64,000 nt of DNA from Candidatus Nomurabacteria bacterium RIFCSPLOWO2_01_FULL_41_18 (GTDB lineage: Bacteria; Patescibacteriota; Minisyncoccia; Phycocordibacterales; UBA9973), in NCBI GenBank assembly GCA_001785865.1, contig MFUZ01000006.1, positions 45,674-109,673 of the forward strand. The letters run 5' to 3'. Positions 2,411 through 56,416 of this stretch are shown here, one piece after another; the first letter of the stretch is position 1, and each line of letters begins with the position of its first letter. A program made the translations under genes and the position numbers. The notes beneath the pieces were generated by a model. The model did no database searches and was not told where the DNA came from. It worked only from the letters and a program-made list of their open reading frames with translations.

Positions 2411-4645
2411 ATGAAAAAATATACTTTGTTTTTGTTTGCCTTTGCCTTCGTTCTAGGCCTTTTTAATATTAATGTGAATTCTGTGAGTGCGCAGACAACT
2501 AGCCCAACAATTAACTCATTCACTCCGGCTTTTGGTCCCGTTGGCACAACAATAAAAGTAAATGGAAGTGGTTTCGCTCCTTCCGCAATGGTATTTTTTA
2601 TGAGTGTAGAAGCTGGGGGCGGTCTTCAAGTTCCAGCAACTGTTGTAAGCAGTAGTGAAATTCAATTTGTCGCTGATATTGATCCTTATTCTCCTTTTGG
2701 AGCCTATTATATTGTTGTAGCTAATAATTATGGCAGTCCATTCGCTCGATCGTCAACCAATTTTATGCTAACGGAACTTAATCCTCAAATTGATTACGTT
2801 TATGATAGTCAGTTCGGAACCCTGGGTTTTAGTAATGGTGAATTCTATCTTCCATCCGCAGTCGCCTTAGATTCCTCAGGCAACATATATGTAGCAGATA
2901 AACGCCGTGTCCAAAAGTTCAACTCCTCTGGTGTTTACCAATCTCAATTCGGTACTGTAGGTTCAGGTAATGGGCAATTTAGTGAACCAGTTGCACTTGC
3001 CATAGATTCTTCAAATAATATTTACGTAGTGGATTTTTCACTAAATCGTGTCCAAAAGTTCAACTCCTCTGGTGTTTACCTTTCTCAATTCGGTAGTGCA
3101 GGTTCAGGTAATGGGCAGTTTAATCAACCATCCGATATCACTATCGATTCTTCAGGTAATATTTATATTGTCGAGACAGGCAACCATCGTGTCCAAAAGT
3201 TCAACTCCTCTGGTGTTTACCTTTCTCAATTCGGTAGTGCAGGTTCAGGCAATGGGCAGTTTAATCAAGGTGTGGGGATTGCTCACGACTCTTTGAATAA
3301 TATTTATGTCACTGACATGGCTAATAATCGTGTCCAAAAGTTCAACTCCTCTGGTGTTTACCTTTCTCAATTCGGTACTGCAGGTTCAGGTAATGGTCAG
3401 TTTAGTCAACCTACCGCAATTAATGTCGATTCCTCAGGTAATATTCTTGTGGCTGAATTTGGCAACCACCGTGTCCAAAAGTTTAACTCCTCTGGTGTTT
3501 ACCAATCTCAATTCGGTACTGCAGGTGCAGGTGACGGGCAGTTTGTTCAAGCGGTTGGGATGACTCTTGATTCTTCGGGTAATATTTATGTAGTTGATTT
3601 CGAATTAGGTCGTGTCCAAAAGTTTACTGTAACTCGTCCAACCGTCACCCTTACCTCATACATAAAAGGTACAGGTACTGGATCCATCTCATCCACCCCA
3701 GAATTAGGATCATGTAATTCAACAACCAAATCATGCAGTGTCACGGTACCAAAAGGTACTGTAGTAACACTCAAATCTGTGAACCTTCCAGCCAATTCTA
3801 CATTCGTTGGATGGTCAGGAGCATGTAGTGGTAAAAACACTTGTGCTGTTACTGTGAATGCAGATACTTCTGTCACTGCTACATTTAATCTTTTAAGGAC
3901 CATTCTGCCAACGGTAGAAATAACAGCATCACCAAATACCATCAGTGCGGGTGACAAATCAAACATTTCATGGACGTCCACAAACGCTACTGTTTGTAAT
4001 AGTTCAGGAAACTGGCCTGCTTCAAGATCTAATACAAGAGCAACATCTGGTTCTCTTTCAGTAAATCCAACAATTACTTCAACATATAGTTTGACTTGTA
4101 TTAATTCTGGAGGAACAGGTAAAACTGCTTCAACAACTGTGACGGTTACTCCAGTCATTCCAACTCCTCAACCAGTCAAAGTCTCACTTTCCATCCAAGG
4201 AGATGGCGAAATAACTTCAAGTTCAAATGTTCAATTTGTCTGCGATAATAGTACTGTTGGTTACACAAACTGCACCGCCTCAATTGTTCCTGGTACTTCA
4301 GTAACTTTCACCGAAAGTCATGATGCCGACAACAACATATTTGGTGGCTGGGGTGGAGGTATGTCTGGTTTTGAAGAAGGAACTAGTTGTTCTCAAACGA
4401 GGGAAAAAACATTTGACGCAACCTGCACTATCACTATTCCTAATGACCCTAACACTCTCATTATTGGTAACTTCATCCAAGCACCTACCAAATCAACCGC
4501 GCCTACTTCATCTCTCCAGAACTTCCTTGCTTCTGTTGTTTTAGTGGCAGGTATACCATGGACTTGGGTAATTGTCTTTATTGCTCTAATTATTATTTTG
4601 ATAATTAACTACGTGGTAGTTAACAGGAAAAAAGGGGGGAAATAA
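2411..4645 (+). CDS. secreted NHL-repeat surface protein with Ig-like and InlB-B-repeat-like modules and a C-terminal TM anchor
   Basis: Signal peptide (MKKYTLFLFAFAFVLGLF...SA). Six ~47-aa NHL-type repeats (G..NGQF..P.....DSSGNIYV.D..N.RVQKF). CxxC-containing beta-sandwich-like modules (GTVVTLKSVNLPANSTFVGWSGACSG..CAVTV). C-terminal hydrophobic helix followed by NRKKGGK. Confidence 0.8.
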   Translation: MKKYTLFLFAFAFVLGLFNINVNSVSAQTTSPTINSFTPAFGPVGTTIKVNGSGFAPSAMVFFMSVEAGGGLQVPATVVSSSEIQFVADIDPYSPFGAYYIVVANNYGSPFARSSTNFMLTELNPQIDYVYDSQFGTLGFSNGEFYLPSAVALDSSGNIYVADKRRVQKFNSSGVYQSQFGTVGSGNGQFSEPVALAIDSSNNIYVVDFSLNRVQKFNSSGVYLSQFGSAGSGNGQFNQPSDITIDSSGNIYIVETGNHRVQKFNSSGVYLSQFGSAGSGNGQFNQGVGIAHDSLNNIYVTDMANNRVQKFNSSGVYLSQFGTAGSGNGQFSQPTAINVDSSGNILVAEFGNHRVQKFNSSGVYQSQFGTAGAGDGQFVQAVGMTLDSSGNIYVVDFELGRVQKFTVTRPTVTLTSYIKGTGTGSISSTPELGSCNSTTKSCSVTVPKGTVVTLKSVNLPANSTFVGWSGACSGKNTCAVTVNADTSVTATFNLLRTILPTVEITASPNTISAGDKSNISWTSTNATVCNSSGNWPASRSNTRATSGSLSVNPTITSTYSLTCINSGGTGKTASTTVTVTPVIPTPQPVKVSLSIQGDGEITSSSNVQFVCDNSTVGYTNCTASIVPGTSVTFTESHDADNNIFGGWGGGMSGFEEGTSCSQTREKTFDATCTITIPNDPNTLIIGNFIQAPTKSTAPTSSLQNFLASVVLVAGIPWTWVIVFIALIIILIINYVVVNRKKGGK
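2906..3651. repeat. tandem 141-bp DNA repeats (six units) encoding the NHL repeats
   Basis: The anchor cgtgtccaaaagtt(c/t)aactcctctggtgtttacc recurs at 2906, 3047, 3188, 3329, 3470 and 3611, an exact 141-bp period with high nucleotide identity. This also generates spurious alternative-frame ORFs at 3048-3296 and 3306-3563. Confidence 0.8.
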
Positions 4646-4686
4646 AAGCTGTACTCATATAATTCACCTGTGGTATAATTACCGGA

Positions 4687-5886
4687 ATGGGAATTTTTTG
4701 GAATACTAAAAATAAAGGAGATCTAGCGCTGGTTTTTGATATCAGGTCTTGTTCGGTGGGAGCAGCGCTTTTTTTGACGAAAAAAAATGGGATTCCTAAG
4801 ATAATTTTTTCCATTCGGGAACCGATACCCATGGAAGAGAATGTGGAAACCGACAAATTTCTCTCTTCGATGATCAAGGCCTTAGAGAGGGCGGCGAAAA
4901 CGGTAGAGAATGCTCGCATGGGCGCGCCGAAGAGGATTTTTTGTGTTCTTGCTTCGCCCCTTCATTTCTCTCAGACCAGAGTCATAAGGCTTGAAAAGAA
5001 CGCACCCTTCATATTTACCGCGAAGCTAGCCAATGATCTCATTCAGAAGGAGATCTCGCTTTTCGAAGAGGAGCACTCATTGAAATATTCCAATGCTGGC
5101 AGCAAGCTCCGATCCATTGAATTTAAAAATATAAAGACAATGCTGAATGGCTATGAGGCGTCGAACCCGCTCGATCAAAAGGCAAAGGATCTCGAAATGA
5201 GCATTTTTATTTCTATGAGCGGAGAATCTGTTTTGCAGAAAATAGAGGAAACTATCTGCAAGCATTTCAATCAGAGAAAAATAACTTTTTCTTCTTCGCT
5301 GATGGCGTCTTTTGCCGTTGTGCGCGATATGTACATGCATAATGAAAATTTTCTTTTAACCGAGATCGGGGGTGAAGTGACTGATATCTCGATGATAAAA
5401 AAGAATATATTACGCGAATCGATTTCTTTTCCTTTAGGTTTTAATTCTATCGTCCGAGGACTTGCCGCCAGGTCAAACTCTTCTTTTGGCGAGGCTAAAT
5501 CTCTAATTTCTCTATTGAAAGATGAGCATGCCTCGAGTGCGGTGGCAAAAAATTCTGGGCCAGTCATAGATGATTTGAAAAAGGAATGGCTGCTTAAATT
5601 TCAAGAATCTTTATCGCATCTCTCAAACGATATTTCCATCCCGGCGACTATTTATCTAGTGGTGAACGGAGAGATGTCCGGTTTTTTTTCTGAAACGATC
5701 AAGGGCGAACAGTTCAATCAATATACTTTAACGGAATCCAAATTCACTGTTGTCTTTTTAGGTGCGGAAGTTTTTCATGGCATGGCGGTATTCGGAGAAA
5801 ACGTAGTTCGAGACGCGACTCTCGTTGTCGACGCCATCTATGTTAATAGGTTTTTAATTCATTCTCTGCCACCCGAGAAAATATAG
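4687..5886 (+). CDS. actin-fold ATPase-like protein (PilM/FtsA-like)
   Basis: N-terminal LALVFDIRSCSVGAALF (DxGS-like phosphate-1). Second actin-fold motif LLTEIGGEVTDISMIKKNILRESISFPLGFNSI resembles PilM/FtsA vDIGggtTdi...iGG. No ftsZ is adjacent, so PilM is favoured, but only weakly. Confidence 0.4.
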   Translation: MGIFWNTKNKGDLALVFDIRSCSVGAALFLTKKNGIPKIIFSIREPIPMEENVETDKFLSSMIKALERAAKTVENARMGAPKRIFCVLASPLHFSQTRVIRLEKNAPFIFTAKLANDLIQKEISLFEEEHSLKYSNAGSKLRSIEFKNIKTMLNGYEASNPLDQKAKDLEMSIFISMSGESVLQKIEETICKHFNQRKITFSSSLMASFAVVRDMYMHNENFLLTEIGGEVTDISMIKKNILRESISFPLGFNSIVRGLAARSNSSFGEAKSLISLLKDEHASSAVAKNSGPVIDDLKKEWLLKFQESLSHLSNDISIPATIYLVVNGEMSGFFSETIKGEQFNQYTLTESKFTVVFLGAEVFHGMAVFGENVVRDATLVVDAIYVNRFLIHSLPPEKI

Positions 5887-5890
5887 TCAT

Positions 5891-7189
5891 ATGCAAAAGA
5901 ATTTATTACAAGATATGGTCAGAATAAAACGCGCGAGGCAGGGGGTGCAAGCGGCGCCCGAGGTGGAAGTTCGACCCGAGCCACCTGAAAGGCCTAAAAA
6001 AGTTCTACCTATATTTACTACGAAATACAGAGCGAGAGAAGCAACTGATCCAGAAAAACCTGGATCCAAATACAAGCTTTGGTTGGTGGCGGGCGTATCG
6101 ATCATCTTTTTTCTTTTTAGCATTTCATATATTTTTATTAATGCGACGGTTACGGTAAACCCTAAAATAGAAAATTTGGTTCTAAATGAAAATATGACTG
6201 CCAGCTTAGATGGTGGCACAGAAGCACTACCTTTTGATCTAATAGTTATTTCTGGCGAAGAAAACAAGACATTGCAATCGAGCGGGGAAAAAGATGTCTT
6301 AGAAAAAGCTCGTGGAGTCGTCCTGATCTATAATAATTTCAGCACCGCTTCCCAGCGGCTAGATATAGACACCCGTCTCGAAGGGTCAAACGGCAAAATT
6401 TACAAAACAGAAAAACAGGTAATAGTAGGAGGCATAAAAGGTGGCATTCCTGGTTCCGTGGAAGTCGGCATATATGGGGCGCAGGAAGGGGAAGAATACA
6501 ACAGCGGTCCTCTCGACTTTACTATTCTCGGTTTTAAAGGGACGCCGAAATATTCTAAATTCTATGCAAGGTCCGAAGGCGAAATCACTGGGGGATTTAA
6601 AGGTAAAGCGCCCATCATTTCTTCCGCCGAGAAATCTGTTGCTGTAAGCGAGATGAAAACGACTCTAGAAACCAAACTTTTCGAACGAGCTTCTGACCAA
6701 ATTCCGGAAGGGTTTATTTTGTTCAAGGATGCGGTGTTTCTGGATATTAATGAAAATGATATTGATTCGACTCCAGTCAAAGATGATCTGATTTCTTTCG
6801 TCCTCAAAGGCACCTTGTATGGTTTTCTGCTTGAAGAGAGCAGGTTGGCTGAGGAAATCGCAGGAAGGAGGGTGGCGGGATACGACGGTAGCGCAGTGTA
6901 TATCCCAAATATCCGAGACCTGGTTTTATCGCTTTCAAATAAAGAAAATATTTCGGGAGAAGTGAAAAATATCCAATTCAATTTGAAGGGCGATGCAAAT
7001 ATTGTCTCAAAATTGGATGAAGATAAGCTTATAGCCGATCTCATAGGAAAATCCAAAAAAGACTTCAATCAGATTCTCTTAGAATATCCAAATATCATTT
7101 CTGCCAAATTAACCCTCCGGCCCTTCTGGAAAAGATCCTTTCCGGATGAAGCTAAAGATATAAAAGTGATCGTAAATTATCCGCAATGA
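5891..7189 (+). CDS. membrane-anchored hypothetical protein (N-terminal single TM; possible pilus-assembly partner)
   Basis: Basic N-terminus followed by a TM helix (LWLVAGVSIIFFLFSISYIFI) and a large extracytoplasmic domain. Assigned only by its position after the PilM-like gene. Confidence 0.35.
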   Translation: MQKNLLQDMVRIKRARQGVQAAPEVEVRPEPPERPKKVLPIFTTKYRAREATDPEKPGSKYKLWLVAGVSIIFFLFSISYIFINATVTVNPKIENLVLNENMTASLDGGTEALPFDLIVISGEENKTLQSSGEKDVLEKARGVVLIYNNFSTASQRLDIDTRLEGSNGKIYKTEKQVIVGGIKGGIPGSVEVGIYGAQEGEEYNSGPLDFTILGFKGTPKYSKFYARSEGEITGGFKGKAPIISSAEKSVAVSEMKTTLETKLFERASDQIPEGFILFKDAVFLDINENDIDSTPVKDDLISFVLKGTLYGFLLEESRLAEEIAGRRVAGYDGSAVYIPNIRDLVLSLSNKENISGEVKNIQFNLKGDANIVSKLDEDKLIADLIGKSKKDFNQILLEYPNIISAKLTLRPFWKRSFPDEAKDIKVIVNYPQ

Positions 7190-7628: not shown

Positions 7629-7739
7629 ATGAAAATAAGATCGGCGGTAAAAAAAATTTGTGATAATTGCAAAATGGTTAGACGCCAAAGGCATTTAAGA
7701 ATAACTTGTTCAAACCCGAAGCATAAGCAAAAACAATAA
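7629..7739 (+). CDS. rpmJ: ribosomal protein L36
   Basis: Manually translated 36-aa [39 protein letters not shown], the L36 zinc-ribbon pattern. Absent from the ORF track because it is shorter than 60 aa. Canonical position between infA and rpsM. Confidence 0.85.
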
Positions 7740-7743
7740 TTTA

Positions 7744-8124
7744 ATGAGAATACTTGGAATCACAGTACCAAATGAAAAGAGATTAGAGATCGGGCTCACT
7801 TGCCTCTATGGTATCGGTGTTTCTACTGCTCGTAAAATTTTGGACAAAGTGGGGATCGATCGTGGCCACTATGCCAAGGACCTCACTTTGGATGAAGAAA
7901 ACAAGATCCGCCTATTGATAGAAGAGATACCGATAGAAGGAAATTTGAAAAGGGAGATCTCAGCTAATATCAAGAGATTGAAGGATATCAAAAGTTACCG
8001 AGGCGTTCGCCACATGAAAAGATTGCCGGTCCGCGGACAGAGGACAAAAACAAATTCGAGAACAGTCCGAGGTAATGTGAGAAAGACGATGGCATCAGGT
8101 AAGAGAAAAGAAAGTAAAACATAA
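7744..8124 (+). CDS. rpsM: ribosomal protein S13
   Basis: MRILGITVPNEKRLEIGLTCLYGIGVSTARKIL matches the S13 N-terminus. Basic C-tail. Confidence 0.9.
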   Translation: MRILGITVPNEKRLEIGLTCLYGIGVSTARKILDKVGIDRGHYAKDLTLDEENKIRLLIEEIPIEGNLKREISANIKRLKDIKSYRGVRHMKRLPVRGQRTKTNSRTVRGNVRKTMASGKRKESKT

Positions 8125-8135
8125 AAAAATAGCAA

Positions 8136-8585
8136 ATGGTAAAAGATAAAACAACAGAAGATAAAAAAGAAGATATAAAGAAAGAAACTGCTGTGGGAGT
8201 GGAGGTGAAGCTTGACGCTCCGAAGACACCAAAGAAGAAAGTAATTTCAGGCATTCTTTCCATTGATGCCACATTCAACAACACTAAAGTTCTTTTTGGG
8301 GACAAATCAGGCAATACGTTATTTTGGTCAAGTGCGGGAAGTTTGGGTTTTCGGGGAGCTAAAAAGGGGACCCCTTTCGCAGCTTCCAAAGTGGGCGATG
8401 TGATCGGCGGTAAAGCCGCTATACTCGGAGTCAAAGATGCGGAGGTGGTGGTCCTCGGAGTCGGCTCCGGACGAGAGCCGGCCATCAGAGCCTTCATGGC
8501 TCATGGGATAGAGATCACCGCTATCAGTGATGCGACCCCAGTGCCTCACAACGGACCGAAAGCTAAAAAGCCTAGACGAGTGTAA
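8136..8585 (+). CDS. rpsK: ribosomal protein S11 (with a Lys/Glu-rich N-terminal extension)
   Basis: GILSIDATFNNTKVLFGDKSGNTLFWSSAGSLGFRGAKKGTPFAA...AMAHGIEITAISDATPVPHNG is the S11 core. Confidence 0.9.
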   Translation: MVKDKTTEDKKEDIKKETAVGVEVKLDAPKTPKKKVISGILSIDATFNNTKVLFGDKSGNTLFWSSAGSLGFRGAKKGTPFAASKVGDVIGGKAAILGVKDAEVVVLGVGSGREPAIRAFMAHGIEITAISDATPVPHNGPKAKKPRRV

Positions 8586-8634
8586 AAGAGTCATAAAGTA
8601 GAAAGTTATAAAGTTCATAAAGTAAAAAGAAAAC

Positions 8635-9240
8635 ATGATAAGTAAACCAAAATTTAAAATTTGCAGAAGACTAGGTCCCGGAGTGTACGACAAGTGTCAG
8701 ACCTCCAAGTTTAGAACGGCCTCCACTAAAGGCGGACTTCCGGGCGCGCGCCGTCCAAAGGCGCCTTCTGAATACGGAGCCCAGCTTATTGAAAAACAAA
8801 AAATTCGCTTTTCGTATGGGATCACAGAGCGACAGCTGTCCAACTATGTTAAAAAAGCTTCTAATATCAAAGGTGCCGGTACCGTAGATAAATTTTACGA
8901 AGAGCTCGAGTGTCGCCTAGACAATGTGGTTTACCGAATGGGTCTCAGTCCTAGCCGCCGCGCTGCCCGCCAAATGGTTTCTCACGGGCATTTTATTGTT
9001 AACGACAAAAAGGTAACTATCCCGTCCTATGAATTGAAGGCAGGAGACGTCCTCAAGATTAAAGAAGGATCAAAGCCAAAAAAGTTATTTGCTAATATTG
9101 CGGAAAAGAACAAAGACTACAATCCTCCGGCATGGATCACTTTTGATACCGGCATTATGGAAGGCAAAATCGTAGACAGGCCAAAGAATACCGAGAGTTT
9201 CCTTGATTTGAATGCCGTGCTTGAGTTTTATAGTCGTTAA
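8635..9240 (+). CDS. rpsD: ribosomal protein S4
   Basis: KFKICRRLG...RQLSNYVKKA...S4 domain (GHFIVNDKKVTIPSYELKAGDVL). Confidence 0.9.
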   Translation: MISKPKFKICRRLGPGVYDKCQTSKFRTASTKGGLPGARRPKAPSEYGAQLIEKQKIRFSYGITERQLSNYVKKASNIKGAGTVDKFYEELECRLDNVVYRMGLSPSRRAARQMVSHGHFIVNDKKVTIPSYELKAGDVLKIKEGSKPKKLFANIAEKNKDYNPPAWITFDTGIMEGKIVDRPKNTESFLDLNAVLEFYSR

Positions 9241-9314
9241 TTTATTATTAAAAATTTCCGCTTTAAGCGGAAACTGTGTGCAGAACAAATTAAAAGCTAA
9301 CTTTATATAAAATT

Positions 9315-10298
9315 ATGTCAGAATACAAAATAGTTATGCCTTCCAAGCCTCGTGTCGTGATGGAGGAAGAAAATAAAGGAGTATTCGAAATAGACGGTCT
9401 TTACCCGGGGTATGGCCATACTCTCGGTAATAGCCTGCGCAGAATAATCCTTTCTTCTCTGCCGGGCGCTAGTTTGACCTCTATCAAGATCGACGGCGTA
9501 AACCACGAATTTCAAACTCTTGAAGGGATCAAGGAAGACGTAATTGTTATGATTTTAAATTTGAAGAAGACTCGCTTTAAAATGTTGTCCGATGAACCAC
9601 AGACAGTCACTCTTTCCGTCAAAGGTCCGAAGGAAGTGACCGCGGGGGACATAAAGACAGGTGGACAAGTAGAAATCTTAAACCCAGAGCTCCATATCGC
9701 CGAAGTTACAGGCAAGATAAATTTAAATATTGAAATGAAAATCGAAAAAGGCCTTGGATTCATCTCCAAAGAAGTCTTTCAAAAAGAAAAAGTCGATGTC
9801 GGCACCATCGCTGTCGACGCTATCTTTACCCCGATTCGTCGAGTCTCCTATGAGGTTGAAAACATGCGTGTCGGAGACAAGACCAACCATAATCGTCTAC
9901 GAATCTCGATCGAAACCGATGGCACTCTCACTGCTCGTGAAGCTCTGTCCCGCTCGATTGAGATCATGATCAATCAGCTCAAAGCCATTATTGATTTCAA
10001 AGAGCCTGAAGAAGAAGTAAAGACCAAGAAAGTTGCCAAGGAAGATAGCAAGGCGGGGGAAGCTGAAGAGAGCGAAAAGAAAGGAGCTGATTTTGCAGAT
10101 GTGCTCAAAACCAGAACGGATAGCCTGGACCTCTCCACGAGGACTTTGAATGCGCTTACTTTTGCAAATATCCGCACATTGGGAGGACTCGCCCGAAAGA
10201 AGAGGGAAGACCTGCTCGAAGTCGAGGGTATCGGAGAGAAAGGAATCACTGAGATTAAAAAGGTGCTTGGCAAGTTTGGCTTGAACTTAAAAGAATAA
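9315..10298 (+). CDS. rpoA: DNA-directed RNA polymerase alpha subunit
   Basis: N-terminal dimerisation domain (GYGHTLGNSLRRILLSSLPG) and alpha-CTD (LDLSTRTLNALTFANIRTLGGL). Canonical position after rpsD. Confidence 0.9.
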   Translation: MSEYKIVMPSKPRVVMEEENKGVFEIDGLYPGYGHTLGNSLRRIILSSLPGASLTSIKIDGVNHEFQTLEGIKEDVIVMILNLKKTRFKMLSDEPQTVTLSVKGPKEVTAGDIKTGGQVEILNPELHIAEVTGKINLNIEMKIEKGLGFISKEVFQKEKVDVGTIAVDAIFTPIRRVSYEVENMRVGDKTNHNRLRISIETDGTLTAREALSRSIEIMINQLKAIIDFKEPEEEVKTKKVAKEDSKAGEAEESEKKGADFADVLKTRTDSLDLSTRTLNALTFANIRTLGGLARKKREDLLEVEGIGEKGITEIKKVLGKFGLNLKE

Positions 10299-50118: not shown

Positions 50119-51248
50119 CCCTTCATGAAATGAAAGGTAAAAAGATAGACAGATTTTTTTTGATAATTGTCGGACTATTGCTTGCTATTGGAGTTGCCAT
50201 ATTTATCTCTGCTTCCTTGGGGGATTATGCGAAAAATAAGGACCTTTTTCGTTCTATTCTCTATAGCCAGTTGGTTCTTGGTCTCGGCATCGGACTAATA
50301 GGGATGTTTATTTGCTCCAAGATCAATTATAAGTTTTGGAGAAAATTTTCTCTGTTCTTCTTTATTATCTCAATCCTTCTCACCATTGCTGTCTTCATAC
50401 CCGGACTCGGCACAAACCAGAACACTGGGGCGACCAGATGGATCTCTGTCTTCGGATTTTCTTTCCAACCGGTAGAATTTCTAAAATTTGGTTTCATTAT
50501 TTATTTTGCTTCCTGGCTGTCTTGGGCAAAAAACAAAACCAATGATTTTAAATATAAGATCTTGCCTCTTGGCATAATTCTTTTATTTATCGCAATAATT
50601 CTGCGTTTCCAACCCGATCATAAAAGCATCATTTTGATCTCTATGACCGGAATTTTCATGCTTTATATCTCCGGTGCTTCCCTAAAATATCTCCTCGGGA
50701 CCGGGGCGATCCTGGTCATCGCCCTGGGCTCTCTAGTTTTTTTCACGCCTTATCTCCAGGAGCGGGTGAAGACGTTTGTCGATCCATCTTTGGACCCGAG
50801 GGGATCTTCTTATCAAATCCAGCAGTCTCTCATCGCGATCGGTTCTGGAGGGATCTTCGGACGTGGCTATGGCCAAAGTATTCAAAAATTCAACTATCTT
50901 CCCGAGTCGCAAGGAGATTTTATTTTTGCTGTACTAAGCGAGGAGCTCGGTTTTATCGGAGCGTTTGGCACCATATTTCTTTATCTACTTTTTACTCTCC
51001 GCGGATTTCGCATTGCCAACAATTCTCCAGATGCCTTCGGTAGACTTTTGGTCTCCGGAATTGTTATACTAATTGCGGTGCAATCCTTCATGCACATAGC
51101 CTCCGTCACCGGAGTTTTTCCGCTGACGGGAGTGCCGTTGGTGTTTATGAGCCAAGGTGGTACTGCGCTCATGATATATCTTGCGGCAACAGGTATAATA
51201 TTAAACGTATCGAAGTTTGCCACTCGAAGCGGGAGAGGAGAGGCCTAA
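50115..51248 (+). CDS. ftsW: SEDS-family peptidoglycan polymerase FtsW/RodA
   Basis: ...QPVEFLKFGFIIYFASWL...PESQGDFIFAVLSEELGFIGA..., the FtsW/RodA pattern. Lies between mraY and murG. Confidence 0.8.
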   Translation: MTLHEMKGKKIDRFFLIIVGLLLAIGVAIFISASLGDYAKNKDLFRSILYSQLVLGLGIGLIGMFICSKINYKFWRKFSLFFFIISILLTIAVFIPGLGTNQNTGATRWISVFGFSFQPVEFLKFGFIIYFASWLSWAKNKTNDFKYKILPLGIILLFIAIILRFQPDHKSIILISMTGIFMLYISGASLKYLLGTGAILVIALGSLVFFTPYLQERVKTFVDPSLDPRGSSYQIQQSLIAIGSGGIFGRGYGQSIQKFNYLPESQGDFIFAVLSEELGFIGAFGTIFLYLLFTLRGFRIANNSPDAFGRLLVSGIVILIAVQSFMHIASVTGVFPLTGVPLVFMSQGGTALMIYLAATGIILNVSKFATRSGRGEA

Positions 51249-51271
51249 AAAGTTAATTTATATAAGATCAT

Positions 51272-52417
51272 ATGAAAATAGTTTTTACAGGTGGCGGAAC
51301 AGGGGGACATTTTTATCCCATTATTGCTGTCGCTCAAAAAGTAAATCAGATAGTGGATAATGAAAACATAACGAGCGTCAAGCTCTATTATGTTTCGGAC
51401 AGCCCTTATGACAAGGAAATGCTTTTTGAAAATAGACTCATCTACGAAGAAATAAGTGCCGGCAAGATGCGGACTCGTACCTCATTCAAAGGTCGTTTCT
51501 TGAATTTTTTGGACATTTTTAAAATTTTTTTTGGCACAGTAAACGCTATTTACAAGATGTTCTCGATATTCCCCGATGTTGTTTTTGGCAAAGGTGGCTA
51601 TGCTTCATTCCCGGCGATCTTTGCTGCCAGACTTTTGCGTATCCCCGTCGTCATCCACGAATCCGATTCAGCTCCCGGTAGAGTGAACAAATGGGCAGGA
51701 CATTTCGCTAAAAAGATCGCAGTCTCATTTATCGAAGCGGCGGAATTTTTCCCAAAAAAAGGCATTGCCTGGACAGGGCAACCGACTAGGACCGAGATTG
51801 AAAATCCGGCTTCGAGAAATGAGGCTCTAGAGTACTTCAAGCTGGAGTCTAGCTTACCCGTCATCCTAGTCTTGGGTGGCTCTCAAGGTGCGGAACTTAT
51901 CAATAATACTGTCTTGGATGCATTGCCGAGACTCCTCCTAAATTATCAGGTTATTCACCAGACCGGAGTGAGAAATTATAAAATGGTCGTGGATCGGGCG
52001 GAAGTCGTGCTTTCGAGGAATCCAAACAAACTTCGATATGTATCTACTGCTTTCTTAAATCCGCTGTCTATGAAAATGGCTGCCGGAGCGGCGACTATTG
52101 TCATATCCCGCGCTGGATCGATGCTCTTTGAAATAGCATCTTGGGGTGTGCCGTCTATTCTAATACCGATAACCAATACGAATATGGACCACCAGAAAAG
52201 AAATGCTTTCAATTACGCCCGTGCTGGAGCGTGCAGTGTCGTAGAAGAAATGAATATGACTGCAAATATCCTAAGTTCGGAGATAGAAAGAATAATAGAA
52301 GACAAAGAGGGATATAAAATGATGAGAGAGAATGCCAAGGCTTTCCATAAGCCGGATGCCGCCATGAAAATAGCTAGAGAATTGGTGGATATTGCTTTGA
52401 GTCACGAGTCCCGTTAG
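51272..52417 (+). CDS. murG: UDP-GlcNAc:lipid I N-acetylglucosaminyltransferase
   Basis: MKIVFTGGGTGGHFYP. GT28 N- and C-domains. Confidence 0.88.
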   Translation: MKIVFTGGGTGGHFYPIIAVAQKVNQIVDNENITSVKLYYVSDSPYDKEMLFENRLIYEEISAGKMRTRTSFKGRFLNFLDIFKIFFGTVNAIYKMFSIFPDVVFGKGGYASFPAIFAARLLRIPVVIHESDSAPGRVNKWAGHFAKKIAVSFIEAAEFFPKKGIAWTGQPTRTEIENPASRNEALEYFKLESSLPVILVLGGSQGAELINNTVLDALPRLLLNYQVIHQTGVRNYKMVVDRAEVVLSRNPNKLRYVSTAFLNPLSMKMAAGAATIVISRAGSMLFEIASWGVPSILIPITNTNMDHQKRNAFNYARAGACSVVEEMNMTANILSSEIERIIEDKEGYKMMRENAKAFHKPDAAMKIARELVDIALSHESR

Positions 52418-52468
52418 AAATAAATTTTAATGTTGCGTAAAAGATTGTCTTTGATATAATAGAAGCAT

Positions 52469-52810
52469 ATGAAGAAAAAAATCGAAACTAAAAAAATGAC
52501 AATTGATAAGTTGGCTATTATGATGAATAATGGTTTTGAAAGTATTGAATCAAGAATGGCAACAAAAGATGACATTAAAGGTCTCAAAAATGAAATTGAA
52601 GGTGTAAAGAAAAATGTGAATGATATTAGGAAAGATGTTTCTAGTAATACCAAGGTTTCAAATTTAATGCTGAAAGAAATTTCAGCTATTCATGAGGACA
52701 ACAAACGTTTCAGAGAAACTGTCGCAAGTTTAAATATGGATGGGGTATCTTACAATAGAAGGATAGAAAATCTAACTATTCGTGTAGAAAAATTAGAAAT
52801 AAAGAAATAG
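52469..52810 (+). CDS. small coiled-coil hypothetical protein
   Basis: Heptad-like charged sequence. No family recognised. Confidence 0.35.
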   Translation: MKKKIETKKMTIDKLAIMMNNGFESIESRMATKDDIKGLKNEIEGVKKNVNDIRKDVSSNTKVSNLMLKEISAIHEDNKRFRETVASLNMDGVSYNRRIENLTIRVEKLEIKK

Positions 52811-52851
52811 TTAAACAATATGCAATATGTTCAAAATTTTAAGCACGAATC

Positions 52852-52876
52852 GAGAGAGAGAGAGAGAGAGAGAGAG
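52852..52876. repeat. (GA)12 dinucleotide microsatellite
   Basis: gagagagagagagagagagagagag, 25 nt, a perfect tract. It sits between an ATG at 52820 (frame 2) and a long frame-1 ORF. Confidence 0.95.
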
Positions 52877-53187
52877 TAAAAGCTCCCTCTAAAAATAGAT
52901 TTTCAAATTCACAAAAACTTTTACACACCTTCATCTTTGGAATAATTTTAATTACTCCTTTCTTTTTTGCTTCACAGGCATTTGCAGCAACCCTAGATCC
53001 TGATTTTCCAATAACCACTTGCGGAGAGATTGAAGCTCTCGGCACCTACACTCTCGGAGAAAACATCGGAGATGGAGAAGGAACTGAGGGCCCTCTTGAT
53101 CCTCTCGGACCGACGGACACTTGCATTACCGTAAACTATGCCGATGGTGATGTTGATATAGACAACAATGGATTCACAATAACAGGA

Positions 53188-55059
53188 TTGGTGAGTTTTG
53201 AGCTTGGGACTACTATCGCTGATACCTTTACTGGTGATGCGGTTTTTAATGGAAATAGTGTTTTTCTTGGCGAAGGTGATAGCGTTATTACCGGTAATGT
53301 CACCTTTAACGATGATTCGAGAGCCGGCAATGATCCTTCCAATCCCCCCGAAGTAGTTGGAAATGTTATTTTTGATACGGAGAGTCTTTTCTCCACAAAT
53401 ATCATAGTAAGTGGCACAGCTACATACATGAATGTAACGGGTACAACGACTATGACCATACCGGATTTACCAGGACCTTTGTATTTTGGAGTAATTGCCA
53501 CTGGTGCCAAAAATGCAGAGGACGAAGATATCATCAATTGGGTCTTTAACGGCACGGGTGAAAACAGTACAAACAACCAAGGAGCGGTATTGGGTGACGC
53601 AGAATTCAACGGGGTCAGTTTCAATTCTGATTATGCCCCGGGTATGATAATTGAAGGCAATGCTACCTTCAACGACCAAAGCTACAACAATGGTGAAGTC
53701 ACCGGCCAAGCCAAATTCACCTACACAGACGGGTCGGGAACTATTACTATTGGCTTTAATATGCAGTGGGGAGCGGGTACAGCAGGAACAATAGTGGGGG
53801 CAAGTGACGAGCCAATTACTGACTGGGTATTTGTCGACTCTAGTAATTATGGGGAGATTACGGCAGACACTGTTTCTTTTTCTGGAACAGAGGGTTTGGG
53901 AGGTTCCAATCAAGGGCCAATTACTGCTAACTTGGTTACATTTAATAGTCTTACTAGTAATACTAATAATATTACAGGTGACGTTGTATTTAATGGTGAC
54001 AGTAATAACGAAGACGGAACAACCATTACCGGAGATGCCACTTTCACCGGCGACCTCTCCGAAAATAACGGAACCGTCTCCGGCACCCTCACCCGCCGCT
54101 ACACCTCAGCCACCAGCCCCACTCGCGACTTCACCGCTACACCTTGGACCGTCCTAGTTGACGGAGCCGAAGTAGATGTTAGTGGTGCCACATATGATGA
54201 AACTACAATTTTCTCATCAGAGAACAGCGGCTGTTTTATTGGAGGTCCGACACCAGCGTGTGTCATCCCCACCGTCACCACTCCCACATCTACATCAGTC
54301 ACTGAAACCACCGTCACCTTGGGAGGAAATGTCACCTCTCTCGGCCTTCCTACCTCCATCTCCGCTCGTGGTACATGCCTTGACACCACTTCATCACCAG
54401 TGACAAATTGTGTTGCCGAAGGAGGCACTACCACAGGAGTCTTCACCCAAGCTCGTACCGGGCTCACTGCCGGAACTTTGTATTACTATCGCGCCTATGC
54501 CACGAACGATACTGGTACCGCCTATTCGGCGGATGGTACGTTTACGACGAGTGAAGCTACATCTTCCTCTGGTAGTGGTGGTAGTAGCAGAAGAAACACA
54601 ATAGCTCCGCCTCCACCAAACATCATACCTCCAGCCTGCCAAGCGGGGGATATCTTTAGCGCTGTAACTGGCTTGTCTTGCGTTTCAACTCCTCCCGCCG
54701 TCTGTCCAATTGGGGATCTCTTCAGCGCTGTGACTGGACTGCCTTGCACCACGCATATTGTTCTGCCTTTCAGTCCAGCTGTTCCTGAGAACATTCCAGG
54801 AAGTCCACCTCTGCAGACAGGAAACGAGAACACTCCTTCCTACAATTTCGGTCTGGCCACTCTTAAGAATGGAGGTAGTGGCATAGCAGTTACAGATCTT
54901 CAAAGATTCTTGAATGCCAAACTGAACCTCAGTTTAATTCTTGATGGAAATTTCGGCCCAAAAACCAAAGCTGCCGTTATTTTGTTCCAGATCGAGAACG
55001 GACTCGTTCCGGACGGCATCGTGGGACCCTTGACGAAGGAGAAAATGAATGGGATCTAA
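53188..55059 (+). CDS. secreted beta-helix-like repeat protein with C-terminal PG_binding_1 domain; 5' end out of frame with its start (see findings)
   Basis: The ORF-track start is a TTG. The same frame is open upstream to 52843 and encodes a signal peptide (LLHTFIFGIILITPFFFASQAFAAT), but that frame has no Met. Body: repeated GDxxFNG/TFN(D/G) units, an Fn3/Ig-like segment, and two CxxGDxFSAVTGLxC repeats. C-terminus: GIAVTDLQRFLNAKLNLSLILDGNFGPKTKAAVILFQIENGLVPDGIVGPLT, a peptidoglycan-binding domain. Confidence 0.6.
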   Translation: MVSFELGTTIADTFTGDAVFNGNSVFLGEGDSVITGNVTFNDDSRAGNDPSNPPEVVGNVIFDTESLFSTNIIVSGTATYMNVTGTTTMTIPDLPGPLYFGVIATGAKNAEDEDIINWVFNGTGENSTNNQGAVLGDAEFNGVSFNSDYAPGMIIEGNATFNDQSYNNGEVTGQAKFTYTDGSGTITIGFNMQWGAGTAGTIVGASDEPITDWVFVDSSNYGEITADTVSFSGTEGLGGSNQGPITANLVTFNSLTSNTNNITGDVVFNGDSNNEDGTTITGDATFTGDLSENNGTVSGTLTRRYTSATSPTRDFTATPWTVLVDGAEVDVSGATYDETTIFSSENSGCFIGGPTPACVIPTVTTPTSTSVTETTVTLGGNVTSLGLPTSISARGTCLDTTSSPVTNCVAEGGTTTGVFTQARTGLTAGTLYYYRAYATNDTGTAYSADGTFTTSEATSSSGSGGSSRRNTIAPPPPNIIPPACQAGDIFSAVTGLSCVSTPPAVCPIGDLFSAVTGLPCTTHIVLPFSPAVPENIPGSPPLQTGNENTPSYNFGLATLKNGGSGIAVTDLQRFLNAKLNLSLILDGNFGPKTKAAVILFQIENGLVPDGIVGPLTKEKMNGI

Positions 55060-55067
55060 CTCGACAT

Positions 55068-55086
55068 ACGGAGGCAACGCCTCCGT
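55068..55086 (+). terminator. hairpin after the surface-protein gene
   Basis: ACGGAGGC-aac-GCCTCCGT. Confidence 0.45.
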
Positions 55087-55132
55087 AAGGAGAATAATAC
55101 AAGGGGGTTGAGTTTTGTGTTATTATGTAAGC

Positions 55133-56416
55133 ATGTCCGACATAAAAGTTGTAACTAGATTTGCGCCGTCGCCGACGGGATTTATGCATGTGGGAGGGGT
55201 GCGAACCGCCCTTTATGCCTGGCTTTTGGCTCGTAAAAACCAGGGTACTTTTATATTACGTATTGAAGACACTGATAAAGAAAGGGAGGTGGAAGGTTCA
55301 ATTGAGCATATTAAAGAATCACTAAAATGGCTCGGCTTGAATTGGGATGATTTTTGTATTCAATCAGAACGCTTGGATATTTATAAAAAATACGCGGACA
55401 GACTTTTGGAAAAAGGTTTCGCATATTCGGACGGAGGAGCTTTAAGATTCAAAATTATCGAAAAGAAACGCACGCAGTGGCATGATCTGGTGTGGGGAGA
55501 CCTTTCGGCGGGTGAAGAAGCTTTGGAGGATTTTATTCTGATCAAGAGCGACGGCTATCCGACATACAATTTTGCGCATATTGTCGATGATATCGAAATG
55601 GGGGTGACCCATGTGGTGCGGGGCCAGGAATTTATTTCTTCAACTCCGAAATTTTTATCGGTATACGAAGCGCTAGGCATCACTCCGCCTTTTTTTGTTA
55701 CGACTCCTCCAATACTTGGAGAAAAAGGAACAAAAAAATTAAGTAAAAGAGATGGTGCGAAAGATATTTTGGATTACAAAAAAGAAGGATATTTGCCTGA
55801 AACGATGATAAATTATTTGGCATTTCTTGGTTTCAACCCGGGAGGGGAAAGGGAAGTGTATACACCAGAAGAATTAATAAAAGTTTTTGACTTAAGCAAA
55901 ATCCAGCGTTCGGGTGCCAAGTGGAGCGATGATAAATTGAACTGGATGAATAAAGAGCATATGAAATTGCTTCCGCTAAAAGAAATTGAAAAAAATATTT
56001 TCGAATTTTTGAGCGAGGACATGAGAAATCCGAAATTAGTCCCAATAATCTTTGAAAGAATTTCAAAATGGGGAGAAGTGAAAGACATGGTAGAAAGGGG
56101 AGAGCTAGATTTCTTTTTCAATCTACCTTCTGTGCCTAAAGAAAAATTAGTGTACAAGAACTCTACTCCAGAAAAAACTACCAGCAATTTAAAATTGGCA
56201 GTCCAAGCCCTCCAAAATATCGATGAGGATAACTTTACCGCGGAAAATGTCAAAAGCGCTCTGATGCTGATCGCAGAAACGCTTCCGAAAAGGGGAGAGC
56301 TGCTCCATCCAGTACGCTATGCCTTATCCGGACTCGACAATTCACCCGATCCGTTTATTATCGCCTATATTTTAGGAAAAAATGAAACATTATCTAGATT
56401 ACAAAAGGCTTTTTAG
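55133..56416 (+). CDS. gltX: glutamyl-tRNA synthetase
   Basis: RFAPSPTGFMHVGGVRTALYAWL (HIGH region) and KLSKRDG (KMSKS). The start is set at the ATG (MSDIKVV); the ORF track begins at an upstream TTG. Confidence 0.9.
   Translation: MSDIKVVTRFAPSPTGFMHVGGVRTALYAWLLARKNQGTFILRIEDTDKEREVEGSIEHIKESLKWLGLNWDDFCIQSERLDIYKKYADRLLEKGFAYSDGGALRFKIIEKKRTQWHDLVWGDLSAGEEALEDFILIKSDGYPTYNFAHIVDDIEMGVTHVVRGQEFISSTPKFLSVYEALGITPPFFVTTPPILGEKGTKKLSKRDGAKDILDYKKEGYLPETMINYLAFLGFNPGGEREVYTPEELIKVFDLSKIQRSGAKWSDDKLNWMNKEHMKLLPLKEIEKNIFEFLSEDMRNPKLVPIIFERISKWGEVKDMVERGELDFFFNLPSVPKEKLVYKNSTPEKTTSNLKLAVQALQNIDEDNFTAENVKSALMLIAETLPKRGELLHPVRYALSGLDNSPDPFIIAYILGKNETLSRLQKAF

What the first reader, a model, noticed from the sequence alone, without database searches (positions are those of the whole stretch)
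52820..53200. (GA)12 microsatellite at the 5' end of a secreted PG-binding surface protein: candidate slipped-strand phase-variation switch
An ATG at 52820 opens in frame 2 and reads MQYVQNFKHES(RE)n, running straight through the perfect 25-nt GA tract (52852-52876) to a TAA at 52877.

The long downstream gene, annotated from a TTG at 53188, sits in frame 1. That same frame is open upstream back to 52843. There it encodes a textbook signal peptide (...KLLHTFIFGIILITPFFFASQAFA|ATLDPDF...) but contains no Met codon at all.

Loss of one GA unit (-2 nt) or gain of two units (+4 nt) would fuse the ATG at 52820 to the signal peptide and the 700+ aa surface protein. That protein has beta-helix-like repeats, an Ig/Fn3-like segment, CxxGDxFSAVTGLxC repeats and a C-terminal PG_binding_1 domain.

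This geometry is the classic one for SSR-mediated ON/OFF switching of surface proteins, here currently OFF. The alternative is an assembly or sequencing indel inside a homopolymeric dinucleotide tract.
Basis: seen in the sequence. Interest (0 to 1): 0.72.

Follow-up and report, generated by a model that had tools for sequence, protein, structure and literature searches.

The report
GA-repeat frameshift switch, surface-protein gene
A perfect 12-unit GA repeat sits between two out-of-frame start codons and the start-less signal peptide of a cell-wall-binding surface protein in a groundwater Nomurabacteria genome; this is the layout of a classical slipped-strand on/off switch, but every public assembly shows the same OFF length, so actual switching is not shown.

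Summary
(GA)12G lies at 52852-52876, and at least six contigs from different assemblies carry exactly 12 units.

The gene is Candidatus Nomurabacteria A2738_01670. Its frame is open for 738 codons from 52843, but it has no ATG, GTG or TTG before 53188. Three relatives have a plain ATG where this copy reads AAT (52894-96).

As a result, tract lengths of 8, 11 or 14 units use ATG-52820, and 7, 10, 13 or 16 units use ATG-52827. Only 9, 12 or 15 units are OFF, so a slip of one unit either way restores a full secreted protein. H. influenzae licA uses the same layout, with start codons in two of three frames.

Against a working switch: no length variant and no in-frame product is on record, no relative carries a repeat, and the gene lies in a lineage-specific 2.7-kb insert. 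A paralogue also carries ordinary frameshifts.

For a working gene: the body is intact and evolved under purifying selection (omega about 0.14-0.19).

Verdict: probably a three-state slipped-strand translational switch, currently OFF (about 0.55). The main rival is a start-less decaying copy with an incidental repeat (about 0.3). The mechanism is known, but the papers searched report none in CPR bacteria.

The parts
52409..55103 (+). Lineage-specific insert between murG and gltX. It carries the 113-aa gene, the repeat switch region and the surface-protein gene.
   Evidence: blastn homology to sister-species loci stops at about 52408 and resumes at about 55104. In L009 and L011, murG is followed directly by gltX. 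L010 holds a Y1 transposase and a kinase in this slot instead.
52452..52460 (+). Extended -10-like promoter element TGATATAAT, ending 8 nt before the ATG of the 113-aa gene. Inferred promoter of the insert; the transcript is probably leaderless.
   Evidence: Read directly from the sequence. The consensus scan did not call it because it lacks a good -35. No plus-strand terminator was found between here and the surface gene.
52469..52810 (+). 113-aa coiled-coil protein gene of unknown function. Its TAG stop (52808-52810) lies 9 nt before ATG-52820.
   Evidence: ORF list. Only weak coiled-coil type Pfam and PHROG matches below cut-offs. Called as a gene in other assemblies.
52820..52822 (+). Start codon 1. 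It is in frame with the gene when the tract has 8, 11, 14 or 17 units. With 12 units it gives a 19-aa peptide ending at TAA 52877-52879.
52827..52829 (+). Start codon 2, in a different frame. It is in frame with the gene when the tract has 7, 10, 13 or 16 units. With 12 units it gives a 21-aa peptide ending at TAA 52890-52892.
52840..52842 (+). TAA that closes the gene's own reading frame upstream. In the 12-unit state this frame has no start codon.
52852..52876 (+). (GA)12G perfect dinucleotide repeat, the proposed slippage site. It is translated as (Arg-Glu)n in every frame and can never create a stop codon.
   Evidence: Identical in L001, L002 and L004.
52894..52896 (+). AAT codon at the position where the paralogue (L003) and the relatives (L007, L008) have their ATG start. 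The family's native start is absent here.
   Evidence: DNA and protein alignments
52918..52986 (+). Signal-peptide hydrophobic core and cleavage region, LLHTFIFGIILITPFFFA-SQAFA. The predicted cut is after 52986.
   Evidence: Near-identical to the signal peptides of relatives that start with ATG. Hydropathy maximum 2.28. No signal-peptide predictor was available.
52987..55059 (+). Mature surface protein, 690 aa plus stop. Parts: beta-solenoid repeats about 53164-54276, Fn3 domain about 54304-54549, two CxxGDxFSAVTGLxC motifs 54637-54747, PG_binding_1 54883-55047.
   Evidence: Pfam. AlphaFold model, mean pLDDT 74.9. Fn3 and endolysin PG-binding fold matches. Coordinates.
55069..55085 (+). GC-rich hairpin CGGAGGC-AAC-GCCTCCG just after the stop codon. 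Possibly the transcript end of the insert.
   Evidence: Read from the sequence. It has no T-run, so it was not called by the terminator scan.

Best explanation
This is a slipped-strand translational switch with three states, controlling a secreted, peptidoglycan-binding surface protein of a Candidatus Nomurabacteria (CPR) bacterium.

Proposed mechanism:
1. The gene lost, or never had, the family's native ATG.
2. Translation must therefore start at one of two upstream ATGs (52820 or 52827). They lie in two different frames, 9 and 16 nt after the stop of the co-transcribed 113-aa gene.
3. The ribosome reads through the (GA)n tract as an (Arg-Glu)n extension of the signal peptide's n-region.
4. 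Replication slippage changes n by whole units (2 nt). With n = 2 mod 3, ATG-52820 is in frame. With n = 1 mod 3, ATG-52827 is in frame. With n = 0 mod 3, neither is in frame and only 19- and 21-aa peptides are made.
5. The population sampled is fixed at n = 12 in its consensus, which is OFF. A slip of one unit in either direction gives ON cells.

Shown: the anatomy, the frame arithmetic, the reality of the tract and the intactness of the gene.
Inferred: that the tract actually changes length at a useful rate, that the ATGs are used, and that the switching is selected.
For: - The tract is real and not an artefact. Exactly 12 units are seen in the window, L001 (ENA MEGAHIT assembly), L002 (JGI), L004 (another ENA sample) and further JGI contigs.
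- It is the only long dinucleotide repeat in 64 kb. The sister-species and paralogue loci have none. Yet it lies within 20 nt of the 5' end of a start-less surface-protein ORF.
- Two ATGs in two frames have open paths into the tract, so two of the three length classes give a 740-749-aa preprotein with an intact signal peptide. Only 5.8% of random 41-mers offer this.
- The same layout is the proven licA switch. [quoted passage not shown]
- The only lesion in 738 codons is the frame offset at the reversible tract. The PG_binding_1 domain is complete and the fold model is confident.
- dN/dS of the N-terminal module against the paralogue is 0.19, and about 0.14 on the window branch (dN 0.124, dS 0.889). 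This copy was therefore under purifying selection for most of its separate history.
- GA repeats cannot create stop codons and encode charge-balanced Arg-Glu, which an n-region tolerates.
Against: - No tract-length polymorphism was found. Predicted products for 9, 10, 11, 13 and 14 units, and the ATG-52820 ON proteins for 8, 11, 14 and 17 units, are absent from the 15-billion-protein collection, while the 12-unit control is present.
- The homology search found only the 622-aa OFF product.
- No relative has a repeat. L003, L007 and L008 start with a plain ATG, and 17 of the 19 remoter homologues listed begin with an ordinary short signal peptide.
- There is no orthologue. The gene sits in a lineage-specific insert in a variable slot.
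- The family shows ordinary decay. The in-genome paralogue has a fixed non-repeat frameshift and a further 1-nt deletion in one assembly.
- No other repeat-associated gene occurs in the 64 kb, so there is no sign of a genome-wide set of such switches.
- No Shine-Dalgarno precedes either ATG, although most genes here lack one.
Confidence: 0.55

Rival explanations
1. Decaying gene copy. A paralogue of the surface-protein family was copied or moved into the murG-gltX slot without its start codon, or lost it afterwards, and is no longer expressed. The GA repeat is a neutral microsatellite that expanded in what is now non-coding DNA. The two upstream ATGs are coincidental.
For: - The native ATG position reads AAT.
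- The consensus is OFF in every assembly and no ON product is on record.
- The insert is lineage-specific and lies in a slot that elsewhere holds a transposase.
- The in-genome paralogue has a fixed frameshift with no repeat, plus another indel in one assembly, so this family does accumulate disabling mutations.
- One upstream ATG with an open path is expected by chance in about 44% of cases.
- The population is so clonal that an intact ORF says little about present-day selection.
Against: - 738 codons are open in a 40% GC genome with no second lesion.
- Long-term omega is 0.14-0.19, including on the window branch.
- Neutral long microsatellites are otherwise absent from 64 kb plus the related loci. 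Finding the only one exactly between start codons and a signal peptide would be a coincidence.
- ATGs in two frames arise by chance only about 6% of the time.
Confidence: 0.3
2. Recoding on the repeat. The 12-unit allele is expressed without any DNA change, because ribosomes or RNA polymerase slip by 2 or 4 nt on the perfectly periodic GA tract, which re-pairs exactly after such a shift. This would move a fraction of the ribosomes that started at 52820 or 52827 into the gene frame. A weaker variant is leaky initiation at the in-frame ATC at 52849.
For: - A dinucleotide repeat keeps full codon-anticodon or RNA-DNA pairing after a shift of one period (read directly from the sequence).
- The ATG-52820 frame meets a stop codon immediately after the tract (52877-52879), a context that favours P-site slippage in known recoding sites (established knowledge of prfB-type sites).
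- A fixed 12-unit consensus combined with a selected gene body would fit.
Against: - I know of no precedent for programmed shifts of 2 or 4 nt on GA repeats in bacteria.
- No stimulatory RNA structure or Rfam family lies in 51000-56000.
- AGA and GAG are not expected to be hungry codons in a low-GC genome (inference).
- ATC is a very poor initiator.
Confidence: 0.04
3. The annotated 622/623-aa ORF, starting at GTG 53191 or TTG 53188, is the real gene. It would make a cytoplasmic protein without a signal peptide, and the repeat would be irrelevant upstream DNA.
For: Gene callers in every public assembly chose this ORF.
Against: - The 115 codons upstream in the same frame are open. They encode a signal peptide and an N-terminal module 74% identical to the paralogue.
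- The callers' start falls in the middle of that conserved module.
- A PG-binding, Fn3, beta-solenoid protein is extracytoplasmic in all its homologues, which have signal peptides.
Confidence: 0.04
4. Assembly or sequencing indel. The true tract is 11 or 13 units and the gene is always ON.
For: Repeats are classic sites of assembly error. All the data are short-read assemblies.
Against: - An identical 25-nt tract is seen in at least six contigs from different assemblers and samples: the window, ENA ERZ4903055, ERZ27254818, JGI 3300025323 and others.
- A 25-nt tract is well inside a single Illumina read.
- No alternative-length product is recorded anywhere.
Confidence: 0.02

Closest known systems
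Haemophilus influenzae licA (lic1) translational switch (Weiser et al.; PMC2212159)
   Same: - The repeat tract lies inside the 5' end of the ORF.
- Initiation codons upstream of the repeat lie in two of the three reading frames.
- Expression is OFF only when the repeat number leaves no initiation codon in frame, so gain or loss of a unit turns it ON.
   Different: - Tetranucleotide CAAT repeat versus dinucleotide GA.
- Cytoplasmic choline kinase versus a secreted surface protein.
- Switching in licA is measured (about 10^-2 to 10^-3 per generation), and different isolates carry different repeat numbers. Here no polymorphism has been seen.
- No sequence homology.
Helicobacter pylori Hop outer-membrane protein genes (hopZ, oipA/hopH, babA variants) with CT dinucleotide repeats (PMC3960876)
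   Same: [quoted passage not shown]
- ON/OFF switching by slipped-strand mispairing.
   Different: - Gram-negative beta-barrel OMPs unrelated to this beta-solenoid/Fn3/PG-binding protein (Pfam finds only PG_binding_1).
- As far as I know they use a single start frame.
- Tract lengths differ between H. pylori strains. Here the length is invariant in all data.
Hypervariable PTD-repeat surface protein of a Gracilibacterium (CPR) (PMC6851277)
   Same: It is the only repeat-driven surface-protein variability reported for a CPR bacterium in the papers searched, and slipped-strand mispairing is invoked.
   Different: That repeat is an in-frame 9-mer that changes protein length and nucleotide sequence. 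It is not a frameshifting ON/OFF switch.
Paralogue A2738_02540 and relatives (L003, L007, L008) of the same surface-protein family
   Same: They share the signal peptide and the N-terminal module (74% identity to L003, 53% to L007/L008) and the beta-solenoid repeats.
   Different: - They start with a plain ATG directly before a short n-region and have no repeat.
- They lie in a different genomic context, after an acidic Pro/Glu-rich protein gene.

Membership tests
SSR-mediated translational phase-variation (contingency) locus | Perfect simple-sequence repeat, unit not a multiple of 3, long enough to be hypermutable | tested here: met
   (GA)12G is perfect, at 52852-52876, and is unique in 64 kb.
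SSR-mediated translational phase-variation (contingency) locus | The repeat lies between the initiation codon(s) and the body of the ORF, so that unit changes move the start in or out of frame | tested here: met
   Simulated tract lengths of 7-17 units give full-length 740-749-aa products for n not divisible by 3, and 14-26-aa peptides otherwise.
SSR-mediated translational phase-variation (contingency) locus | Tract length differs within or between populations or strains | tested here: inconclusive
   All reachable assemblies have 12 units, and no product of any other length is on record. However, these are consensus sequences of one nearly clonal population (0-1 SNP in 7.9 kb). Read-level counts could not be made.
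SSR-mediated translational phase-variation (contingency) locus | Reversible, high-frequency ON/OFF switching of the product | not testable with these tools
   The organism is uncultivated. This needs read-level, proteomic or reporter data.
SSR-mediated translational phase-variation (contingency) locus | The regulated product is surface-exposed or modifies the surface (typical of the family, not strictly defining) | tested here: met
   Signal peptide shared with relatives. PG_binding_1, E = 8.8e-13. Fn3 and beta-solenoid model.
licA-type switch with initiation codons in two frames | Initiation codons in two of the three frames upstream of the repeat, none in the third | tested here: met
   ATG 52820 and ATG 52827 are in different frames. 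The third frame is closed by TAA 52840-42 and has no start. Compared with PMC2212159.
licA-type switch with initiation codons in two frames | Homology to licA, or a CAAT tetranucleotide repeat | tested here: not met
   The unit is a dinucleotide and the protein is unrelated. It works like licA but is not a member of that family.
Helicobacter Hop OMP CT-repeat genes | Hop-family outer-membrane beta-barrel protein | tested here: not met
   Pfam finds only PG_binding_1. The fold is solenoid plus Fn3 plus a helical PG-binding domain.
Pseudogene | Loss of a usable start codon in the gene's frame | tested here: met
   No ATG, GTG or TTG between 52843 and 53188. AAT stands at the family's start position.
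Pseudogene | Further disabling lesions or relaxed constraint | tested here: not met
   738 codons are open. Omega is 0.19 pairwise and about 0.14 on the window branch. Recent relaxation cannot be excluded, because the population is clonal.
PG_binding_1 (PF01471) domain proteins | Match above Pfam's gathering score | tested here: met
   48.7 bits against a cut-off of 23, covering positions 3-57 of the 57-position profile.

The most novel reading that the evidence does not exclude
The 12-unit 'OFF' allele is in fact expressed by programmed slippage of 2 or 4 nt on the GA repeat, by ribosomes or by RNA polymerase. A dinucleotide repeat re-pairs perfectly after a shift of one period. That would explain a fixed 12-unit consensus together with a gene body kept under purifying selection. 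It would be a recoding signal of a kind not described in bacteria.
Probability: 0.04. Interest if true: 0.8.

Novelty: new member of a known kind. Interest (0 to 1): 0.45.

Why it matters
Nearly all known repeat-driven ON/OFF switching of surface proteins comes from host-adapted pathogens such as Haemophilus, Neisseria, Helicobacter, Campylobacter and Mycoplasma. CPR/Patescibacteria are ultra-small, uncultivated and thought to live attached to other cells. Their large surface proteins are the prime candidates for host attachment and for phage recognition.

The papers searched report no frameshifting repeat switch for this group. If this tract really varies, these groundwater episymbionts would be hedging their bets on a cell-surface protein, through a licA-like three-state design that arose independently.

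There is also a practical point. Every public annotation of this gene starts inside the conserved N-terminal module and therefore misses the signal peptide.

If the tract does not vary, the locus is simply a start-less gene copy with a curious microsatellite.

Tried and rejected
1. **Flank-anchored DNA pattern with a floating tract length, on JGI metagenome contigs:** 0 hits. That collection does not hold this population, so the scan says nothing about polymorphism.
2. **Reference-genome scan with the in-frame protein:** only a weak PG-binding-domain hit in a Saccharibacterium. No orthologue.
3. **Profile search with the two-sequence N-terminal alignment:** no hits, although P0003 must be in the collection. 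I treat this as a tool limitation, not evidence.
4. **L006,** a JGI contig identical to the window from 52955 but different upstream, looked like a possible alternative 5' end or ON allele. Its upstream part is the antisense strand of a RelA/SpoT TGS-domain gene and supplies no start codon. It is a chimeric contig or a disruptive rearrangement.
5. **The GA tract as a remnant of the Glu-rich 3' end of the gene upstream of the paralogue:** local alignments are no better than shuffles (p = 0.03-0.97 across the comparisons, none convincing). Rejected.
6. **Known RNA element in the leader:** no Rfam match with E up to 1 in 51000-56000.
7. **Phage origin of the insert:** only the PG-binding domain resembles endolysins. 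No relative in IMG/VR.
8. **Other switch-like repeats in the window:** none. (GA)5 at 23125 lies in frame inside a 726-aa ORF, and the G/C runs are 6 nt at most.
9. **The 249 + 490-aa split of the paralogue in one JGI assembly as possible phase variation:** it is a 1-nt deletion in a T3 run, not a repeat tract.
Full report
**1. What is there**

The window comes from Candidatus Nomurabacteria bacterium RIFCSPHIGHO2_01_FULL_42_x, a CPR/Patescibacteria genome assembled from metagenomes of the Rifle aquifer. The gene is locus tag A2738_01670 (P0001, 100% identity).

The sequence statements of the finding are correct:
- ATG at 52820 reads MQYVQNFKHES(RE)4 into a perfect (GA)12G tract (52852-52876) and stops at TAA 52877-52879.
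- The downstream gene's frame is open from 52843 to 55059, 738 codons. It has no ATG, GTG or TTG until TTG 53188 / GTG 53191.
- Public annotations start at GTG 53191 (622 aa).
- The 115 'unannotated' codons encode a signal peptide (LLHTFIFGIILITPFFFA-SQAFA|A) and a conserved N-terminal module.

The mature protein has four recognisable parts: a beta-solenoid, an Fn3 domain, two CxxGDxFSAVTGLxC motifs and a complete PG_binding_1 domain. The evidence is Pfam E = 8.8e-13, an AlphaFold model with mean pLDDT 74.9, and Fn3 and endolysin-type PG-binding fold matches.

**2. Is it more than chance, or an artefact?**

The tract is the only dinucleotide repeat longer than 5 units in the 64 kb. About 70 kb of sister-species and paralogue loci contain no dinucleotide repeat of 5 or more units.

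It is not an assembly error. The identical 25-nt tract is found in:
- an ENA MEGAHIT assembly (L001, 0 mismatches in 7.9 kb);
- a JGI assembly (L002, 1 mismatch);
- a short contig of another ENA sample (L004);
- further JGI contigs, inferred from the product of a spurious minus-strand ORF that crosses the tract.

**3. A correction that changes the picture**

The 41-nt spacer between the stop of the preceding gene and the tract holds two ATGs, at 52820 and 52827. They are in different frames, and both have stop-free paths into the tract. The third frame, which is the gene's own frame at 12 units, is closed by TAA 52840-42.

Simulating tract lengths of 7 to 17 units gives three classes:
- n = 8, 11, 14 or 17 puts ATG-52820 in frame. 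The product starts MQYVQNFKHES(RE)nRVKAPSK... and is 743-749 aa.
- n = 7, 10, 13 or 16 puts ATG-52827 in frame. The product starts MFKILSTN(RE)nRVKAPSK... and is 740-746 aa.
- n = 9, 12 or 15 leaves no start in frame.

The observed 12 units is therefore the single OFF class, and a slip of one unit in either direction restores a complete preprotein.

The tract can never produce a stop codon. It is always read as charge-balanced Arg-Glu, in the n-region of the signal peptide.

One upstream ATG with an open path is unremarkable, occurring in about 44% of random 41-mers from this window. Open ATGs in two frames occur in about 5.8%.

**4. Relatives and origin**

The family norm is a plain start.
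- The in-genome paralogue A2738_02540 (L003) begins MK(MK)FSQNILRTLILGIILITPFFFASPVFA.
- A relative from other metagenomes (L007, L008) begins MLSATSQKLLRTLILGIILITPFFFASQVFA.
- In both, the ATG aligns with the window's AAT at 52894-96, and neither has a repeat.
- 17 of the 19 remoter homologues listed also start with a short ordinary signal peptide.

There is no orthologue. In sister species (MurG 81-83% identical), murG is followed directly by gltX (L009, L011), or by an IS200-type transposase and a kinase (L010). Homology to the window stops at about 52408 and resumes at about 55104.

The 113-aa coiled-coil gene, the switch region and the surface-protein gene are therefore a lineage-specific insert of about 2.7 kb in a variable slot.

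The 83 nt upstream of the lost start show no significant similarity to the paralogue's upstream region.

**5. Is the gene alive?**

For:
- The only lesion in 738 codons is the frame offset at the reversible tract.
- dN/dS of the N-terminal module against the paralogue is 0.19, with dS about 1.0. A three-taxon partition gives the window branch dN 0.124 and dS 0.889, so omega is about 0.14. This copy was constrained for most of its separate history. The caveats are that dS is near saturation, only 120 codons were used, and the branch includes part of the paralogue's stem.

Against:
- The paralogue carries a fixed frameshift at a non-repeat site.
- One assembly of the paralogue has a further 1-nt deletion. 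The family does accumulate ordinary disabling indels.
- The population is so clonal (0-1 SNP in 7.9 kb) that an intact ORF says little about present-day selection.

**6. Does the tract vary?**

No variation could be found.
- Exact look-ups of the products predicted for 9, 10, 11, 13 and 14 units (minus-strand ORF) all failed.
- Exact look-ups of the ATG-52820 ON proteins for 8, 11, 14 and 17 units also failed.
- The 12-unit control was found in ENA and JGI data.
- The homology search with an ON protein returned only the 622-aa OFF product. This search would also have caught ON versions that start at ATG-52827.

These are consensus sequences from what appears to be one clone in one aquifer. They have little power against a minority of switched cells, or against neutral stasis over a few hundred generations.

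**7. Mechanism proposed**

What is shown is the anatomy and the frame arithmetic. The rest is inferred.
1. Transcription starts from an extended -10 element (TGATATAAT, 52452-60) in front of the 113-aa gene and continues through the surface gene. No terminator was found between them.
2. Neither ATG has a Shine-Dalgarno, like most genes here. The ATGs lie 9 and 16 nt after the 113-aa gene's stop, so initiation may be by termination-reinitiation.
3. Replication slippage changes the GA unit number and selects ATG-52820, ATG-52827 or neither.

This is the layout of H. influenzae licA, where initiation codons lie in two of the three frames and expression is lost only when none is in frame (PMC2212159). 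The unit size and position match the CT repeats of the H. pylori hop genes (PMC3960876).

It works like these systems but is not a member of either family. There is no homology, and the defining property of observed switching is untested.

**8. Rivals**

- **Decaying start-less copy with an incidental microsatellite (about 0.3).** It fits the fixed OFF state, the lost ATG, the insert and the decay seen in the family. It must then treat three things as coincidences or recency: the unique tract at exactly this spot, the ATGs in two frames, and the intact, constrained ORF.
- **Recoding by slippage of 2 or 4 nt on the periodic tract, or leaky ATC initiation (about 0.04).**
- **The annotated internal start is real (about 0.04).** This is contradicted by the conserved signal peptide upstream.
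- **Assembly error (about 0.02).**

**9. Novelty and score**

The mechanism is textbook. The host group is not. The papers searched contain no frameshifting repeat switch in CPR bacteria, only an in-frame 9-mer repeat in a Gracilibacterium.

I file the locus as a new, candidate member of a known kind. Interest is moderate (0.45). The design is neat and testable, but there is no evidence yet that it switches.

Noticed in passing
L003 about 6150-6450 (paralogue A2738_02540, gene 4001-6334): The in-genome paralogue carries a -1 frameshift at GGCCCACG, with no repeat tract. After ...GTVTG the solenoid repeat pattern continues in another frame (PTTFDSTSYNEGTVTGATTFNSS...) and runs on past the end of the locus. 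The same truncated 777/779-aa product is recorded in many assemblies, so the frameshift is fixed.
   Followed up: partly
L013 about 3106 (equivalent to L003 4601), JGI 3300025323: One JGI assembly of the paralogue has a 1-nt deletion in a T3 run (GACTTTACC to GAC-TTACC), which splits the gene into 249 + 490 aa. The sequence is otherwise identical over 3.1 kb. It is either a real indel polymorphism or an assembly error.
   Followed up: yes
L006 1-1782 (Ga0209002_10112022); junction corresponds to window 52955: This short JGI contig is 100% identical to window 52955-53315. Within the signal-peptide codons (CTCCTTTCTTTTTTGC) it is joined to the antisense strand of a RelA/SpoT-type gene (TGS domain, E = 1.8e-18) that is absent from the window. 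It is a chimeric assembly or a real rearrangement that destroys both genes.
   Followed up: partly
window 52409-55103; L009, L010, L011 about 7640-9500: The murG-gltX junction is a variable slot in Nomurabacteria. It is empty in two sister species, holds an IS200/IS605 Y1 transposase plus an APH-type kinase in RIFCSPLOWO2_01_FULL_42_17, and holds the 113-aa gene plus the surface protein here.
   Followed up: partly
window 52452-52471: An extended -10 element, TGATATAAT, ends 8 nt before the ATG of the 113-aa coiled-coil gene. This suggests a leaderless or nearly leaderless transcript. The promoter scan did not report it.
   Followed up: no
window 50115, 51272, 52469, 52820, 56382 (gene starts): Most gene starts inspected have no recognisable Shine-Dalgarno sequence. 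Only gltX (TTG 55115) is preceded by a G-rich stretch.
   Followed up: no
window 52839-53045 (minus strand): A spurious 68-aa minus-strand ORF, antisense to the signal-peptide region and reading the tract as LSLSLSLS, is annotated as a gene in the JGI and ENA assemblies. It proved useful as a recorded proxy for tract length.
   Followed up: yes
window 52904-52985 versus L007/L008: The signal-peptide coding DNA is 88% identical between the window copy and a relative whose N-terminal module as a whole is only 53% identical at the protein level. The signal-peptide segment is the best-conserved DNA of this gene family.
   Followed up: no
window 55069-55085: A GC-rich hairpin, CGGAGGC-AAC-GCCTCCG, lies directly after the surface gene's stop and before gltX's G-rich leader. 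It has no T-run.
   Followed up: no
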